Below the pieces are notes generated by a model. That model did not search any database, was not told where the DNA came from, and saw only the letters and a program-made list of their open reading frames with translations. From the IMG/VR virus record IMGVR_UViG_2630968533_000001: a DNA stretch of 47,560 bases; one strand, written 5' to 3'. The stretch is from a virus. Its lineage: Duplodnaviria; Heunggongvirae; Uroviricota; Caudoviricetes. Below, piece after piece: positions 154 through 6,768 of this stretch. The translations under genes and the position numbers were made by a program. Numbering within the stretch: the first letter of the stretch is position 1; the number at the start of each line of letters is the position of its first letter.

Positions 154-534
154 ATGAGCATGATTAAAATCCGCAAAAACGCTTTCCTTAAAATTCAAAC
201 TATCCTGGCTGGTTCTGTTGGCGTGATTTGCCGTTCTTCTTCAAGCCGCATCGATGACGGCTACGATGATGAGTATCGTTTGTCCTCGTGCGATGAGGCT
301 TTAACCTGGCTGAAGGAGAATCAGGAACGTGCCCAGGTATATCTGGAAACAGAGAACGGCAATCAGATGCTCCGTATTAGCGGTCGTTATGGATTTGAAA
401 CCACATTCATGGCCTATTTTAATCAGGCTTACTTTGACAAGGAGTTGGCCTGGTACACTGATCGCATGAGCAAAAGCGAGCCAGCCCCGATTACACCGCC
501 GAACGATAAACCATTTTTATTCCTCGTTAAGTAA
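154..534 (+). CDS. Hypothetical protein (126 aa) expressed from cassette copy 1
   Basis: ORF track; ATG directly after the conserved leader and SD; no domain recognised. Confidence 0.6.
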   Translation: MSMIKIRKNAFLKIQTILAGSVGVICRSSSSRIDDGYDDEYRLSSCDEALTWLKENQERAQVYLETENGNQMLRISGRYGFETTFMAYFNQAYFDKELAWYTDRMSKSEPAPITPPNDKPFLFLVK

Positions 535-637
535 ACACAATGCGCAAAGTGTCAAAATGACACTTTGCGAGTGTTAATATAGGGGGCGTTTGAAGATAGA
601 TAACTTATTGTGGGGCAAGCCGATAACTTACATTGGG

Positions 638-1063
638 TTAGCTTGAATAGGTAGTTGGTATTTTGAGCATATGGCCAATCTCTTCGAGATGCTTAGATGG
701 ATTCTCCCCAGTCTTACCTTCATGTATTGACGCTATATAGTTCAAATTTTGAGCTGCCCCAAGAATCTCGGTGGCTGATGGAACAAGACGAAAGCCGATA
801 TGTAACTTTTTGATATAGAAAGGTAAAGTGGAATATTTCGCCATTAACTGTGCTGCGGAATCTTTTAGATCATGAATGATTTCTGGCTTTAAGTTCGAGC
901 CAGGATTCACTATTTTTGCTTGGTTACACAATAACAGATTGGATATTTTCCCTAGCTGTTCCCTGAATGAAATGTAAGGCTCAATAGCTCCTTTGACGAT
1001 GAGTTGGCCTAGAACAAAAACACTTACACCAGTGACCACGGTGACAAAAGCAGATGAACTCAT
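638..1063 (-). CDS. Hypothetical membrane-anchored protein (141 aa, N-terminal TM helix)
   Basis: ORF track; hydrophobic N-terminus SSSAFVTVVTGVSVFVLGQLIV; divergent from the HTH gene at 1165. Confidence 0.5.
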   Translation of the reverse strand: MSSSAFVTVVTGVSVFVLGQLIVKGAIEPYISFREQLGKISNLLLCNQAKIVNPGSNLKPEIIHDLKDSAAQLMAKYSTLPFYIKKLHIGFRLVPSATEILGAAQNLNYIASIHEGKTGENPSKHLEEIGHMLKIPTTYSS

Positions 1064-1164
1064 TTTTTACCTAAAGCCTAAAGATTGGATTGTTAATACA
1101 TCTTATTTTGTCGTGAGTGGCTATGTCTAATTTATTGAATATCTAGGGAAAGGTAGAGGATGTA

Positions 1165-1425
1165 ATGACGGGTTACGAATTGAAATTATGGCGTCGTGGG
1201 ATGAACTGGACGCAGGAGCGAGCCGCCGAAGAGTTTGGGATATCGTTGGCTACATATAAGCGATATGAGAAGGGTGAGCCGCCGAGGGTCATTGAGATGG
1301 CCATTCGCGTTCTGTCGTTTGACGATATGGTTAAGGATCTTTCACACCTTGATAAAGATGTGATTCTGTTAAGGCTGCAAACCCTTGTATGGGAAAAGGT
1401 TAAAGTGTCGTCAGAATTGGAATAA
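1165..1425 (+). CDS. Small HTH (XRE-like) DNA-binding protein
   Basis: ORF track; N-terminal LWRRGMNWTQERAAEEFGISLATYKRYEKG resembles a Cro/C1-type helix-turn-helix. Confidence 0.55.
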   Translation: MTGYELKLWRRGMNWTQERAAEEFGISLATYKRYEKGEPPRVIEMAIRVLSFDDMVKDLSHLDKDVILLRLQTLVWEKVKVSSELE

Positions 1426-1486
1426 GGGATCAAATGATCCTTTACGGATCGTTTTATGGTGGTGTAATGTAAGCGCCAGAAAGACA

Positions 1487-1510
1487 AAAACCGCCTTGCC
1501 GGGCGGTTTT
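1487..1510. terminator. Bidirectional intrinsic terminator-like hairpin (AAAACCGCC...GGCGGTTTT)
   Basis: Perfect stem ccgcc/ggcgg flanked by an A-run and a T-run. Confidence 0.5.
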
Positions 1511-2023
1511 CAGTCTGAAATTTAAATCTTGCTTGGTAGGCTGGATTTAAAAAGACACCTCTTGATTGGGGCGGCTTTCTTGCGTCTAAAGATAATCAAA
1601 TCTTTTTGCGCCTGCAACCCCTTTTTTACTGGTGCCCATTTCAGACTCACGCTCGCGTCGTTGTCTTTGCCACTTCGTTGGGTTCGGTGTTTTTGGGCGA
1701 AGTGGCGCGCGGGTATGCGTACAAGGGGAAAGTGTGCTGACGCAAGCCAGGAACAGCGATCTAAACTAAGTCGAGTCTGAGAAAGGCAGGAGTGCGACAA
1801 CTCGCCTGTGCTCTATGAGCAGAAGAAGGTATATCAGACGACCAATGGCATGATTGTGGGCCACAGGGCGCACACGGCGGCGAAGCATTGGAAACGATGT
1901 GGAGCTATCTGGTGGCATGAGTTCCGGTACTCGATCTCGAGCTTTTTTTGATGCTTTTGAGAAGGGGCCGGAACTCCGGTAAAGGGCACCCTGTATGGGG
2001 GGAGGGGGGGGTGTGTCTGAAGG

Positions 2024-2236
2024 GTGGTTATCGGTTATGGTGGAATTATGATGCGTAGAAAAGCGAGTTTGCTGCAAGCTGTTGGGTCCATTATTTCTTT
2101 GTTTCCGGCAGTTGATCATTTTCGTCATATGGCGACACGTTCCAGTATGGGCTTAGCGCGTGATGCTGACGCTATTCGAAAGGATTTTCAGAAAGTCTCT
2201 GGCGTTGATAAGAGAGAAAAGAGTAAGGGGCCGTAG
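2024..2236 (+). CDS. Small hypothetical ORF (alternative start ATG 2048), low confidence
   Basis: ORF track; ends just before the hairpin at 2225-2242; preceded by a G-rich tract; no homology recognised. Confidence 0.2.
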   Translation: MVIGYGGIMMRRKASLLQAVGSIISLFPAVDHFRHMATRSSMGLARDADAIRKDFQKVSGVDKREKSKGP

Positions 2237-2242
2237 CCCCTT
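2225..2242. terminator. Hairpin AAGGGGC-CGTA-GCCCCTT between convergent genes
   Basis: Perfect 7-bp stem directly downstream of the antirepressor stop (minus) and the small + ORF. Confidence 0.4.
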
Positions 2243-2246
2243 GTAG

Positions 2247-3416
2247 TTATGGTCTGCTCTTCTGTGCCAGCTTATCAGCACATGTTTTTATCAGATCCTG
2301 TAGTGTCCTGGCTGGCAGGTTTGCATCCAGTACGCTGAGTATGCTGTTGTGATCTGCTTGGTCGACTACTTTGCCTGTCGGTGGTAGTAGCTTGAGCTGA
2401 GGATTCAGGTTTTCGTCAAAGCTGATAAGTGCTCTGGCGTTTCTGAGCAGATCAAGAAGTAAGGCTGATATCACATTTTCCTGAGTCATTGCTGACAGAT
2501 TTAGCGCCGCTTTGGTTTTCCCTGTTGCCTTGTCAAACTCCTTGATTAGTTCCTTCCTGTAGTTCGGTTCCGTTAATAGCCGATTATGCTCTGTTGCCGC
2601 GCGGATAATCGTTTTTTCCTGGTACAGTCGTTTAGCCAGATCACGCTCGTACTGTGTTTTTAACACGCTGCTGATAGCGTTAAAGGCTTCAATGTAGGCC
2701 AGCTTGATATCTTTCACGCCTGGACCGTCGATACTTTCCATGAGCAAGGTAAATCCGTCTTTTGTCATGCGATAGATTGTTATTTCGCGGTCGCTTCCTT
2801 CCAGCGGTCGTTGCTCTTTAAAGAAATGACGTGCCGCAGCTGTGCGAGGAATGCGTAACGCATCGATGGCCATAACGATGGAATTGTTTGTGGTGCTGAA
2901 TGCCTGGGCAACATCGGCTGAGGTTGTGAGTGGCTCGTTGTTGCACACCTTAATGTAAAACATCGGTTTGGCGTTGAGCGTATCGACAACCTCACGAGCA
3001 TTGTTTGGCGAGACGGTTACGGTCGCGGCCGTTTGTGTGTTCTGGCTGAAATAGCAGTCTTCCAGCCGTTCGAACACATCCCAAGCCTGATCGGTTTCAA
3101 GCATTTTGGCGTGACGTGCAGCCCCGCGTTCTGTCCAGAGAATGAGGGAGCGGGCTTTCGGGGAAATTTGTAACCCTCTTAAAGATGGTTGCACATTTTG
3201 TGAGTGACTTAAAGTCACTCGCAAAGTTTTTAACTCATCGCCAGCCACTTTGAAAAAATGCTTTCCTTCAATAAAGCGGTTTGCGTTACGTGAGTAATTT
3301 TTTTTGATGTTATCAACGTCTGTGCCGTATAGCTTTGCCAGTAGTTCAGTAGTGATAACGGGGATCTGGTTATGCAGGATAGGCTGTAGGGTGTTAACGG
3401 TCGGAAGCGTTTTCAT
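2247..3416 (-). CDS. Phage antirepressor (N-terminal ORF6N-like and Rha-like domains)
   Basis: ORF track; N-terminal motif ITTELLAKLYGTDVDNIKKNYSRNANRFIEGKHFFKV typical of ORF6N antirepressors; central PLTTSADVAQAF segment Rha-like; start overlaps the stop of the upstream small ORF (ATGA). Confidence 0.65.
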   Translation of the reverse strand: MKTLPTVNTLQPILHNQIPVITTELLAKLYGTDVDNIKKNYSRNANRFIEGKHFFKVAGDELKTLRVTLSHSQNVQPSLRGLQISPKARSLILWTERGAARHAKMLETDQAWDVFERLEDCYFSQNTQTAATVTVSPNNAREVVDTLNAKPMFYIKVCNNEPLTTSADVAQAFSTTNNSIVMAIDALRIPRTAAARHFFKEQRPLEGSDREITIYRMTKDGFTLLMESIDGPGVKDIKLAYIEAFNAISSVLKTQYERDLAKRLYQEKTIIRAATEHNRLLTEPNYRKELIKEFDKATGKTKAALNLSAMTQENVISALLLDLLRNARALISFDENLNPQLKLLPPTGKVVDQADHNSILSVLDANLPARTLQDLIKTCADKLAQKSRP

Positions 3417-3604
3417 TTTGCACCTCCCATAACTACTTTGGTTACGAGGGAGATTTTTGCGTCAGAAACAGCGTTATCGTTGCTGGCGATGCGCATAGCT
3501 TCGCGCTCGATGATTTCAGCCAGGCGGAATTTATCGGCGTATGAGGCTTTCTTGAGAAGGATCTTTACGAGGTTGACGTAATAGTCATGGGGTAGGTTTG
3601 TCAT
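3413..3604 (-). CDS. Small protein (63 aa) translationally coupled to the antirepressor (icd-like position)
   Basis: ORF track; 4-nt overlap with the antirepressor start; SD-like AAGGGA upstream on the minus strand. Confidence 0.45.
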   Translation of the reverse strand: MTNLPHDYYVNLVKILLKKASYADKFRLAEIIEREAMRIASNDNAVSDAKISLVTKVVMGGAK

Positions 3605-3769
3605 TGTGATGATTCCCTTAAAGGTTAAGGATACTCACCACCGTCAGGTTCCAATCATTGGGTGGTGAGACGTGCAGGGTTGGAACTACCGGACACAATG
3701 ACGAACCGGCGAGTCTTACGACTCCCCCGCACGCCCCACCATAATTTGGGTGTAGCAGTGCTTTACGCA

Positions 3770-3869
3770 TAAAAAAACCGCTAACGCGGTATGCGCCATT
3801 GTGTCTACGGGGTTCCAATCCCGACCGTAGATTTTGCTACGGCTCGGAAAGTGTCCACCAATGGCGCAT
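3770..3869 (-). ncRNA. Candidate structured small RNA / leader element (c4-like hypothesis)
   Basis: On the minus strand an 11-bp terminal stem (3791-3801 with 3859-3869) encloses an inner hairpin ctacgg/ccgtag, followed by hairpin accgc-gtta-gcggt and a U7 run (3770-3790); loop sequence has a near-complement at about 3680-3695 in the downstream leader. Confidence 0.25.
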
Positions 3870-4360
3870 TCATGTCAATACGGCGGGATTTTAACAGAGA
3901 CAACCACATAGCGTGGGTTTATTGGTAGGCAGAAACAAAAAAACCGCCCTATTGAGGACGGTTCTTTCGTGCTGATCGGATTCGCGGTCCTTTCAGCATA
4001 ACGTCGTTGTATAAACAACCACGCAAGCACAAGCAGCAAGTTAATTTTACCCAAAAGGTAATAATAGTCCACTATTATGCTTCAAAAAATTGTGGTTCTT
4101 GTTGTGCCTGCAAACTCACAGATTGTGGGTAGGTTACTGATTTTGTGAAAATAAACGAGTTTTTTCGTTTAATTTCTTTCCTATTACTAATCTTAAAATA
4201 ATCGTAAAATACCTGTGGACCTTCCCGCCGATTCGCACCCGGGCACCGACTTTAGGGGAGGATTCTCCGTTGCCGTACATGCAAGCACAAGCAGCCGTGC
4301 TTGCTCTCGCGTTGTTTTCGTCGGTGGGGATGCCGTGAAACGGCCTGTAAGGGCCATACA

Positions 4361-4483
4361 ATGAAAAAATACTGTATGTGTATTTTTATCGTTGTTACTG
4401 GGGCTTTGTTTACGCCACATGGGGAGGGTTGGAAGATTACTGATAACGCTCTGAATGTGACGATAAACATTAGCAGCAAGTAG
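4361..4483 (+). CDS. Small hydrophobic ORF (40 aa, MKKYCMCIFIVVTGALF...), speculative
   Basis: In-frame ATG within ORF 4301-4483; hydrophobic N-terminus; followed by a strong terminator; no SD seen. Confidence 0.2.
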   Translation: MKKYCMCIFIVVTGALFTPHGEGWKITDNALNVTINISSK

Positions 4484-4487
4484 CGAT

Positions 4488-4512
4488 TAGGCCCCTTCGG
4501 GGGCCTTTTTTA
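4488..4512 (+). terminator. Rho-independent terminator (AGGCCCC-TTCG-GGGGCCT then T-run)
   Basis: Perfect GC-rich hairpin followed by TTTTTTAT. Confidence 0.55.
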
Positions 4513-6111: not shown

Positions 6112-6768
6112 TCATAACCAGTTGACAACACTAACTACGCGGCCAAGAACTTTATAACGCTTAAATTCCTCGTTATTCAGATGCTTAGTGTTCATTTCAG
6201 CATCCCTTTCGGTTGACAGCATAACAGCATTGTCACCCGGTATGACTCTACAGTGCCTCAAAACAACCAGGCCATTTCTGTCTTCAAGGGCATAGATCCC
6301 CTCATGAATCTCTGTATCGTCTGTATTAATCAGGACTTGGGAGCCAGGGGATATTGTTGGTGACATTAACTCATCGTTGCTCTGGAGAACTGACAGAGAC
6401 GATGGGTTGATGTTCTTGCTTCGTAGAATCTCCTGTTCTATCGCCAGCACTGGCTTTTCTCCGGCGTGCGATGCTATGTCATTTTTTATAGCTACAAGCC
6501 CAGGAATAACAGGAGCGTTAGTATTCTGGGGTGGGAACGGGTTATCTGTTAAGCACGCGATATAAGGCGCTGATGCTTTCAGGGCGTGCGCGATTTTCTT
6601 GATGGCAGGTATAGATGGTTGTCTTAATCCGGCCTCATAGTTCTGCAAGGTGCTTAAGCCTATTCCAGTGACTTGCTGGAGATCTCCGGCAGTCATGCCG
6701 GATTGTTTCCGTAGAGTCTGAATGCGCAGACCTATTTCTTTCTTGATGTTCTCGTCGTTGCTTTTCAT
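6112..6768 (-). CDS. cI-like repressor (N-terminal HTH plus C-terminal S24/LexA-like peptidase domain)
   Basis: ORF track; N-terminal HTH IGLRIQTLRKQSGMTAGDLQQVTGIGLSTLQNYEAG; C-terminal autocleavage-type domain; divergent from the cro-like gene. Confidence 0.8.
   Translation of the reverse strand: MKSNDENIKKEIGLRIQTLRKQSGMTAGDLQQVTGIGLSTLQNYEAGLRQPSIPAIKKIAHALKASAPYIACLTDNPFPPQNTNAPVIPGLVAIKNDIASHAGEKPVLAIEQEILRSKNINPSSLSVLQSNDELMSPTISPGSQVLINTDDTEIHEGIYALEDRNGLVVLRHCRVIPGDNAVMLSTERDAEMNTKHLNNEEFKRYKVLGRVVSVVNWL

What the first reader, a model, noticed from the sequence alone, without database searches (positions are those of the whole stretch)
638..1425. Divergent membrane-protein / HTH-regulator pair at the left end
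A 141-aa protein with a single N-terminal TM helix is divergently transcribed from a small XRE-like HTH protein, upstream of the antirepressor module. Lysogen-expressed membrane protein plus regulator pairs often mediate superinfection exclusion or abortive infection.
Basis: inference. Interest (0 to 1): 0.4.

Follow-up and report, generated by a model that had tools for sequence, protein, structure and literature searches.

The report
Membrane-protein moron beside an unrelated regulator
The two genes are real, but they are not a functional pair: the small membrane-protein gene is an optional, self-contained insert of unknown function in this E. coli phage-plasmid, found on about 6% of complete E. 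coli genomes, and it landed next to a regulator gene that belongs to the element's backbone.

Summary
ORF 638-1063(-) encodes a 141-aa protein with one N-terminal membrane helix. ORF 1165-1425(+) encodes an 86-aa XRE/HTH_3 protein. The two are divergent, 101 bp apart, and lie left of a P1 immI-like c4-icd-ant antirepressor operon.

The "pair" is accidental. Sister elements (Yersinia phage vB_YpM_39 and several E. coli plasmids) keep a near-identical HTH gene but have 8 bp where the window has 582-1157. The HTH gene is on 58 PLSDB plasmids; the cassette is on only 11. Homologues of the 141-aa protein sit without this HTH on more than 330 other plasmids (IncF/ColV, IncX4, D6-like), in Salmonella, Serratia and Leclercia plasmids, and in a lambdoid prophage.

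The protein belongs to an unannotated family (phrog_7512; 697 clusters at 50% identity). It is under purifying selection. It is predicted to be N-out/C-in, with a cytoplasmic four-helix bundle (pLDDT 91). It has no conserved catalytic-type residues, no conserved neighbour, and no match in Pfam, NCBIfam, PADLOC or PDB.

Best reading: a stand-alone moron whose product acts by binding at the inner membrane, possibly excluding phages or other mobile elements. That function is inferred, not shown. Interest is modest.

The parts
582..1157 (.). 576-bp facultative cassette (moron-like insert) that carries the 141-aa gene. Sister elements have 8 bp (TGTGCGAG or a variant) in its place.
   Evidence: Filled versus empty sites were aligned. 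The cassette is at >=99% identity in only 11 PLSDB plasmids and 12 of 5426 complete E. coli genomes. Its GC content is 39.1% against 44.6% for the window, which puts it in the lowest 16% of same-size windows.
638..1063 (-). Gene for a 141-aa N-terminally anchored membrane protein with a predicted cytoplasmic four-helix bundle (phrog_7512 family).
   Evidence: ORF. phrog_7512 match E = 2.8e-74. One TM segment, with 0.2 K/R before it and 2.4 after it on average. AlphaFold2 pLDDT 91.4, pTM 0.81, helices 2-46, 60-78, 97-117, 123-133. dN/dS 0.13-0.53.
1100..1129 (-). Sigma-70 promoter-like site (TAGACA-18-TAAGAT) inside the cassette, 36 bp upstream of the 141-aa start codon.
   Evidence: Consensus scans. 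This is a consensus match only. The number of promoter-like sites in the region does not exceed the shuffle expectation, so it is a candidate and not evidence of function.
599..637 (+). Two direct copies of GATAACTTAnnnTGGG, 23 bp apart, inside the cassette just 3' of the 141-aa stop codon. Role unknown.
   Evidence: 2 matches in the window against 0.03 expected.
543..569 (.). Perfect 12-bp-arm palindrome in the backbone, immediately left of the insertion point. It is terminator-like on the minus strand, so it could end the 141-aa transcript. In empty sites it lies about 25 bp upstream of the HTH ribosome-binding site.
   Evidence: unique in the window. A compensatory change in both arms is seen in L011.
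1165..1425 (+). Backbone gene for an 86-aa XRE/HTH_3 regulator (phrog_6962). It is not specific to the cassette.
   Evidence: Pfam HTH_3 29.9 bits. It is 94-100% identical in sister elements with or without the cassette. It is on 58 PLSDB plasmids at >=90% identity and in 3 Yersinia phages.
1485..1512 (.). GC-rich hairpin flanked by A and T runs (terminator-like) downstream of the HTH gene.
154..534 (+). Backbone 126-aa gene (phrog_8090, unknown function). In empty-site relatives it is directly followed by the palindrome and then the HTH gene.

Best explanation
The window is a ~48-kb myovirus-type phage-plasmid of E. coli. The 141-aa gene is a self-contained, independently mobile accessory gene (a moron). 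It was inserted, on the opposite strand, between two co-oriented backbone genes: the 126-aa gene and the 86-aa HTH gene. The HTH protein is a backbone regulator and not the partner of the 141-aa protein. The 141-aa product is a single-pass inner-membrane protein. Its N-terminus (about 4 residues) is predicted to face the periplasm. Its remaining ~115 residues are predicted to form a basic four-helix bundle tethered to the cytoplasmic face. The residues conserved across the family are structural or packing types (G12, Q20 in the membrane helix, P29, L45, P95, N108, L133), with no catalytic-type set, so it most likely works by binding rather than catalysis. The membrane helix may mediate self-association or docking on a host membrane protein. 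Shown here: the insert boundaries, independence from the HTH, plasmid and phage carriage, purifying selection, and the predicted topology and fold. Inferred: it is expressed from its own promoter in the carrier state, acts alone, and benefits the element by excluding or aborting incoming phages or other mobile DNA at the inner membrane. My probabilities: about 0.9 for the independent moron, not paired with the HTH; about 0.3 for an exclusion or defence function.
For: Filled and empty sites differ only by 582-1157 versus 8 bp. The HTH gene is kept in elements that lack the cassette. Counts are 58 plasmids with the HTH against 11 with the cassette. Homologues sit on IncF/ColV, IncX4 and D6-like elements, on Salmonella, Serratia and Leclercia plasmids, and in a lambdoid prophage. 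DNA similarity there is confined to the ORF and the neighbours differ. In E. coli complete genomes, 335 of 339 copies are on plasmids, in 332 of 5426 genomes. In the window and in the lambdoid prophage L035 the gene is antiparallel to its flanking genes. A promoter-like site lies inside the cassette. The profile search finds 697 clusters, almost all full-length at ~140-150 aa. dN/dS is 0.13-0.53. Topology statistics are and the model (pLDDT 91.4). A defence gene is nearby in some contexts: AbiD immediately upstream in two Salmonella plasmids, and a PDC-S73 nSTAND candidate 1.8 kb away in L037. TA, partition and resolution genes neighbour it in most plasmid contexts.
Confidence: 0.4

Rival explanations
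1. One reading: the HTH protein and the membrane protein form a dedicated regulator-effector module (superinfection exclusion or abortive infection under XRE control) transcribed from a shared divergent promoter region.
For: Divergent arrangement with a 101-bp spacer. The HTH is a bona fide XRE-type DNA binder.
Against: Their distributions are independent: the HTH occurs without the membrane gene in most sister elements, and the membrane gene occurs without this HTH on more than 330 plasmids, in D6 and in a lambdoid prophage. The spacer is insert DNA except for its last 7 bp, and holds no inverted repeat and no plus-strand promoter-like site.
Confidence: 0.07
2. Toxin-antitoxin or post-segregational-killing reading: the membrane protein is a membrane-damaging toxin that stabilises the plasmid. 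The antitoxin would be the HTH or an unrecognised antisense RNA.
For: It is nearly always plasmid-borne in E. coli. It typically lies beside stability modules: HigBA here, Phd/ParE, Phd/Doc, ParA/ParM and resolvases elsewhere. It is a small membrane protein.
Against: There is no conserved adjacent partner gene. The HTH is not co-distributed and is divergent rather than co-operonic. At 141 aa with a folded cytoplasmic bundle, it is unlike type I toxins. There is no match to TA families in Pfam, NCBIfam or PADLOC.
Confidence: 0.06
3. The protein is an accessory factor for host or element physiology rather than a defence factor. Examples would be a membrane-tethered adaptor that sequesters or recruits a cytoplasmic partner for envelope stress, cell division or SOS-linked functions, or for plasmid maintenance at the membrane.
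For: The domain is cytoplasm-facing and the conservation pattern is non-catalytic. Distant relatives lie in ordinary chromosomal neighbourhoods. UmuD/UmuC-like genes are often within a few kb, and in D6 the gene is directly downstream of humD. There is no defence-family match.
Against: The distribution is sporadic and biased to mobile elements, and near-identical elements differ by its presence or absence, which is more typical of conflict genes. No partner or pathway is conserved. I saw no LexA-box-like sequence when reading 1064-1157 by eye.
Confidence: 0.3
4. The gene serves the phage's own infection cycle (for example a counter-defence, lysis-timing or injection-related accessory protein) rather than the carrier state.
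For: It is carried by three unrelated temperate phage types and has a PHROG family.
Against: Most copies are on conjugative, non-phage plasmids (264 of 346). It is antiparallel to the neighbouring phage operons and far from the lysis and morphogenesis modules.
Confidence: 0.1
5. The ORF is a chance or decaying reading frame without function.
For: No annotation in any curated library.
Against: dN/dS is 0.13-0.53 with near-saturated synonymous sites. There are 697 clusters of full-length relatives. The fold prediction is confident.
Confidence: 0.02

Closest known systems
Morons of temperate phages (promoter-gene-terminator units present in one phage and absent from its close relative, as defined for HK97/HK022; my own knowledge)
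   Same: Sister genomes are otherwise 97-99% identical and differ by presence or absence of the cassette. The insertion is intergenic. The gene is antiparallel to its flanks. A promoter-like site lies inside the unit and a hairpin lies just downstream. GC content is somewhat lower.
   Different: Promoter and terminator activity and prophage-state expression are untested. The same gene family is mostly carried by conjugative plasmids rather than phages.
Small prophage-encoded inner-membrane superinfection-exclusion proteins (for example lactococcal Sie2009, HK97 gp15, T4 Imm, P22 SieA; my own knowledge)
   Same: Small size, membrane anchoring, stand-alone gene, carriage by temperate elements, patchy distribution.
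   Different: No sequence or profile similarity to any annotated PHROG, Pfam or PADLOC family. The bulk of the protein is predicted to be cytoplasmic. No phenotype is known.
phrog_7512 / phage D6 orf109 (hypothetical proteins)
   Same: True homologues: the phrog_7512 match is end to end (E = 2.8e-74), and D6 orf109 is 74% identical over 141 aa.
   Different: None of these has a described function, so membership gives no mechanism.
Small plasmid and phage XRE regulators (Pfam HTH_3; distant similarity to CTXphi RstR and to ~83-aa HTH proteins of IncL/M, IncI and IncF plasmids). This entry concerns the 86-aa protein.
   Same: HTH_3 domain at residues 6-40, ~85 aa, located in plasmid maintenance regions.
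   Different: It is below the NCBIfam RstR cut-off (34.3 against 80 bits). No target or operator has been identified. The element's likely main repressor is a different, cI/LexA-like 218-aa protein at 6112-6768(-).

Membership tests
phrog_7512-type membrane-anchored helical-bundle family (unannotated) | Full-length profile match | tested here: met
   phrog_7512 E = 2.8e-74 over residues 1-141 of 141. A profile of the family retrieves 697 clusters at 50% identity, nearly all full length.
phrog_7512-type membrane-anchored helical-bundle family (unannotated) | Single N-terminal TM helix, short N-tail, K/R-rich C-side; conserved G12, Q20, P29, L45, P95, N108, L133 | tested here: met
   All 40 of 40 members have one dominant N-terminal hydrophobic window. 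K/R counts average 0.2 before it and 2.4 after it.
Moron (phage accessory transcription unit) | Present in one genome and absent at the same site from close relatives | tested here: met
   Window 582-1157 versus 8 bp in L002, L011 and L012.
Moron (phage accessory transcription unit) | Own promoter and terminator | tested here: inconclusive
   TAGACA-18-TAAGAT lies at 1129..1100(-), and a hairpin at 569..543(-) lies just outside the insert. These are consensus matches only, and the promoter-like count is not above the shuffle expectation.
Moron (phage accessory transcription unit) | Expressed from the repressed prophage or plasmid state | not testable with these tools
   This needs RNA-seq or TSS mapping of a carrier strain.
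Superinfection-exclusion / abortive-infection proteins | Homology to a described Sie, Abi or defence family | tested here: not met
   PADLOC gave 0 families for the protein and only scattered single weak hits for 40 relatives. Pfam and NCBIfam gave no hits. The only PHROG is of unknown function.
Superinfection-exclusion / abortive-infection proteins | Protects the carrier cell or population from phage | not testable with these tools
   This needs plaque, EOP and infection-dynamics assays.
Superinfection-exclusion / abortive-infection proteins | Enrichment next to known defence genes | tested here: inconclusive
   AbiD is adjacent in L005 and L007, and a PDC-S73 candidate lies near L037. At least ten other contexts show no recognised defence gene. 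The sample is too small for statistics.
Two-gene regulator-effector or type II TA module (XRE protein plus partner) | Conserved adjacency or co-occurrence of the two genes | tested here: not met
   The HTH gene occurs without the cassette in L002, L011 and L012, and in 47 of 58 plasmids by count. The 141-aa family occurs without this HTH in every other replicon examined.
Two-gene regulator-effector or type II TA module (XRE protein plus partner) | Shared operon or shared operator-bearing control region | tested here: not met
   The genes are divergent. There is no inverted repeat in 1064-1164. The spacer is insert-derived.
XRE / HTH_3 transcription regulators (86-aa protein) | Pfam HTH_3 above the gathering score | tested here: met
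   29.9 bits against a cut-off of 23; HTH_31 27.6 against 27.
RstR family repressors (86-aa protein) | NCBIfam NF041951 above its cut-off | tested here: not met
   34.3 bits against a cut-off of 80. tblastn shows 31% identity to CTXphi RstR.

The most novel reading that the evidence does not exclude
The 141-aa protein defines a new single-gene, non-enzymatic immunity family. It would be a four-helix bundle tethered to the cytoplasmic face of the inner membrane, carried by enterobacterial conjugative plasmids, phage-plasmids and prophages (about 6% of complete E. coli genomes). It would block or abort incoming phage or plasmid DNA by binding a host or invader component at the membrane.
Probability: 0.25. 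Interest if true: 0.55.

Novelty: new member of a known kind. Interest (0 to 1): 0.3.

Why it matters
If the 141-aa family proved to be an exclusion or defence factor, it would add a very small, single-gene, plasmid-borne system that is already common in clinical and avian E. coli plasmids (IncF/ColV, IncX4, P1/D6-like). That would bear on phage therapy and plasmid ecology. As things stand, the practical value of this analysis is corrective. The apparent regulator-effector pair comes from an insertion, so experiments should test the 576-bp cassette on its own. The HTH gene should be treated as part of the phage-plasmid backbone.

Tried and rejected
- Curated family searches. Pfam, NCBIfam and PADLOC gave no hit for the 141-aa protein, and Pfam and PADLOC gave none for 40 diverse relatives. 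A PDB sequence-profile search found nothing below E = 0.25.
- Link to the 159/167-aa protein. This single-TM protein neighbours the homologue in IncF, IncX4 and Salmonella plasmids. hhalign gave probability 0.4%, so the two families are unrelated. The 159-aa family is absent from the window and is more widespread on its own, on 659 plasmids.
- Related-locus scans. The search for related loci with the diverse alignment failed because no stretch was conserved enough. The close-family alignment found only 2 species-representative genomes.
- Regulatory signals. I looked for a shared operator or divergent promoter pair in 1064-1164 and found none.
- Palindrome 543-569 as a repeated operator. It is unique in the window.
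- Literature. Searches by protein and plasmid accession numbers and by phage names found no relevant paper.
- Signal-peptide reading of the N-terminus. I rejected it because there is no basic n-region, the hydrophobic stretch is ~20 residues, and the positive charges follow it.
- LexA box. Reading the upstream region by eye showed none.

Full report
**Observation.** The two ORFs exist exactly as described. ORF 638..1063 on the minus strand encodes 141 aa. ORF 1165..1425 on the plus strand encodes 86 aa. Their start codons face away from each other across 101 bp.

The 141-aa protein has one strongly hydrophobic segment. The Kyte-Doolittle 19-residue maximum is 2.23 at residues 5-23, and nothing else exceeds 0.75. 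The 86-aa protein passes the Pfam gathering scores for HTH_3 and HTH_31.

To the right lies a P1 immI-like operon on the minus strand. Rfam finds a C4 antisense RNA (3658-3746, 77.8 bits) and its a1b1 target. These are followed by a 63-aa ORF and an ORF6N+Rha antirepressor gene at 2247-3416. The factual part of the finding is therefore confirmed.

**What the element is.** The left 3.5 kb is 99.7% identical to E. coli ECOR 39 plasmid RCS82_pI (47.8 kb). It is 97-98% identical to about 60 other non-mobilizable ~48-kb E. coli plasmids and to three Yersinia pestis myophages, vB_YpM_39, 41 and 44.

The annotated relative carries RepA, ParA and HigB/HigA, together with terminase, portal, capsid, sheath/tube, baseplate, tail-fibre and holin/endolysin genes. 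It is thus a myovirus-type phage-plasmid.

Its likely main repressor is a separate 218-aa protein with an HTH_3 domain and a weak Peptidase_S24 match, at window 6112-6768(-). That gene is divergent from the early genes.

**The pair is not a pair.** In vB_YpM_39 the HTH gene is 97.7% identical at the protein level, but the 141-aa gene is missing. Aligning the junctions shows that window 582-1157 (576 bp) is replaced by 8 bp (TGTGCGAG, or a one-base variant) in three independent relatives (L002, L011, L012). Other relatives (L001, L013, L014) carry the same insert at the same site.

In empty sites the HTH gene directly follows the 126-aa backbone gene and a 12-bp-arm palindrome.

Counts in PLSDB point the same way. 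The HTH is found at >=90% identity on 58 plasmids. The cassette is found at >=99% identity on only 11, and in 12 of 5426 complete E. coli genomes.

Of the 101-bp "divergent control region", 94 bp came in with the insert. This stretch contains no inverted repeat and no plus-strand promoter-like site, even under relaxed criteria. The only promoter-like site there is TAGACA-18-TAAGAT at 1129..1100, which points towards the 141-aa gene. That is a consensus match only.

**Distribution of the 141-aa family.** Close homologues (56-82% identity) are confined to Enterobacterales.

By tblastn, 346 PLSDB plasmids carry one, and 264 of those are conjugative. In complete E. coli genomes, 335 of 339 copies are on plasmids, in 332 of 5426 genomes.

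DNA similarity to these copies stops at the ORF borders (query positions 64-492 of 576). The gene therefore moves as a unit into different surroundings:
- **Phage D6:** between humD and phd/doc. D6 is the only other phage record that matches among 50,697.
- **pECOS88 (IncFIB) and an IncX4 plasmid:** next to a 500-aa hypothetical protein and a 159-aa single-TM protein.
- **Salmonella plasmids:** beside Phd/ParE, AbiD, ParA and a resolvase.
- **A Serratia plasmid:** near RdgC, a Dam-type methyltransferase and ParE.
- **A Leclercia plasmid:** near ParM/StbA.
- **A lambdoid prophage contig:** a 40%-identical copy lies antiparallel in the nin-like region, between the Dam/DUF1367 genes and the replication genes.

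None of these contexts contains the window's HTH.

A profile search of 1.84 billion cluster representatives finds 697 relatives at E <= 1e-3. Almost all are 135-155 aa and match end to end. The seven distant members whose contigs I examined have heterogeneous neighbourhoods. One lies at a prophage end next to an integrase and HigBA. One lies near an nSTAND/PDC-S73 candidate. One lies on a conjugative plasmid. Four lie among ordinary or unannotated genes, with no recurrent partner.

**The protein.** Pairwise dN/dS against six homologues is 0.13-0.53, with synonymous sites near saturation. It is therefore a protein under purifying selection.

All 40 diverse members tested have a single N-terminal hydrophobic helix after a median 4-residue tail. 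They average 0.2 K/R before the helix and 2.4 K/R in the 15 residues after it. By the positive-inside rule this predicts an N-out/C-in anchor, not a cleaved signal peptide. This is an inference.

AlphaFold2 with a 59-sequence alignment gives pLDDT 91.4 and pTM 0.81. The model has one long helix (2-46) that contains the membrane segment, followed by helices 60-78, 97-117 and 123-133 packed as a four-helix bundle. An earlier model from 22 close sequences agreed (pLDDT 79).

The residues conserved in at least 90% of members are G12, Q20, P29, L45, P95, N108 and L133. There is no conserved His/Asp/Cys/Ser set that would suggest catalysis. The soluble part is mildly basic, with pI 8.7 here and a family median of 8.9.

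No library gives a lead:
- Pfam, NCBIfam and PADLOC give no hit for the protein, and Pfam and PADLOC give none for the 40 relatives.
- The PDB sequence-profile search gives nothing below E = 0.25.
- The best Foldseek PDB hit is 2huj, an unknown-function protein, at E = 0.2.
- BFVD gives nothing.
- The only named family is phrog_7512, annotated "unknown function".

**Interpretation.** The firmly supported conclusion is structural and evolutionary. The 141-aa gene is a facultative, self-contained insert that behaves like a moron. The HTH gene is a backbone gene that happens to lie next to the insertion point.

How the protein works is inference. It is tethered to the cytoplasmic face of the inner membrane. 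It appears non-catalytic. It has a polar and glycine-bearing face in its membrane helix. It is solitary, and it is sporadically distributed on plasmids, phage-plasmids and prophages in accessory or stability regions.

The most economical reading is a binder that acts alone in the carrier state for the benefit of the element. Exclusion or abortion of incoming phages or other mobile DNA is the leading candidate, and I put it at about 0.3.

A physiological adaptor role has comparable weight. The support for it is the housekeeping contexts of some distant relatives, the frequent UmuD/UmuC-like neighbours, and the absence of any defence-family signal.

One side effect of the insertion deserves mention. 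If the HTH gene was originally co-transcribed with the 126-aa gene, or transcribed from the palindrome region, its transcript must now run antisense through the 141-aa gene. This is untested.

**The HTH protein.** It matches phrog_6962 (E = 1.3e-45). It is distantly similar to CTXphi RstR, at 34.3 bits against an NCBIfam cut-off of 80 and 31% identity. It is also 35-53% identical to ~75-85-aa XRE proteins in the maintenance regions of thousands of IncL/M, IncI and IncF plasmids. No solved structure is close. Its target is unknown. In one relative, p142_C, the gene is frameshifted.

**Comparison and novelty.** The arrangement is a typical moron in a phage-plasmid accessory region. The protein is a true member of an existing but functionally blank family (phrog_7512, D6 orf109). 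It resembles small prophage Sie proteins only in size, membrane anchoring and lifestyle, and it fails the one testable membership criterion, which is homology. I therefore rate it a new member of a known kind (an accessory moron encoding a small membrane protein), with modest interest.

The most novel reading that the evidence leaves open is that it founds a new single-gene, plasmid-borne immunity family. I put the probability of that at about 0.25.

Noticed in passing
window 4215-4511 (+): There is a full-length Rfam ryfA match (141.8 bits against a gathering score of 80). The ORF at 4301-4483 contains a short hydrophobic peptide (MKKYCMCIFIVVTGALF...). This looks like a ryfA/TimP-type type I toxin locus carried by the phage-plasmid between the immI region and parA.
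   Followed up: no
window 2247-3860 (-): This is a P1 immI-like operon: C4 antisense RNA (3658-3746, 77.8 bits), an a1b1 target (3804-3856, 38.8 bits, below the gathering score), an overlapping isrK-like match (3771-3843, 67.7 bits), a 63-aa icd-position ORF (3413-3604), and an ORF6N+Rha antirepressor (2247-3416).
   Followed up: partly
window 543-569; L011 1043-1069: A perfect 12-bp-arm palindrome (CGCAAAGTGTCA-nnn-TGACACTTTGCG) lies between the 126-aa gene and the insertion point, and is unique in the window. In one relative both arms carry a compensatory change (CACAAAG...CTTTGTG), and the loop varies between AAAA and TTTT. It could be a terminator or attenuator, or an operator in front of the HTH gene in empty-site elements.
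   Followed up: partly
L008 5561-6040; L009 5555-6034; L005/L007 6022-6525: A second family of small proteins (159-167 aa) with one N-terminal TM helix lies within 1 kb of the 141-aa homologue. This is seen in IncF/ColV, IncX4 and Salmonella plasmids, but in different relative orientations. The family is on 659 PLSDB plasmids, is sometimes annotated 'peptidase M14', and shows no detectable homology to the 141-aa family.
   Followed up: partly
L012 1091-1328 (plasmid p142_C): In this cassette-less relative the HTH gene is split into two ORFs by a frameshift, so the regulator can be lost.
   Followed up: no
window 599-637: A tandem direct repeat GATAACTTAnnnTGGG (two copies, 23 bp apart) lies inside the cassette just after the 141-aa stop codon. 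It occurs nowhere else in the window.
   Followed up: no
window 1520-2246: This ~700-bp stretch between the HTH terminator and the end of the antirepressor gene has GC content of 50% (the highest of the six left-end segments I measured). It contains a G-run (GGGGGGAGGGGGGGG near 1996-2011) and only one small annotated ORF in relatives (62 aa, corresponding to about 2048-2236). Several relatives differ in this region.
   Followed up: no
window 6112-6768 (-): A 218-aa protein with HTH_3 and a weak Peptidase_S24 match lies divergent from the early-gene cluster. It is the probable main lysogeny repressor, distinct from the 86-aa HTH protein.
   Followed up: partly
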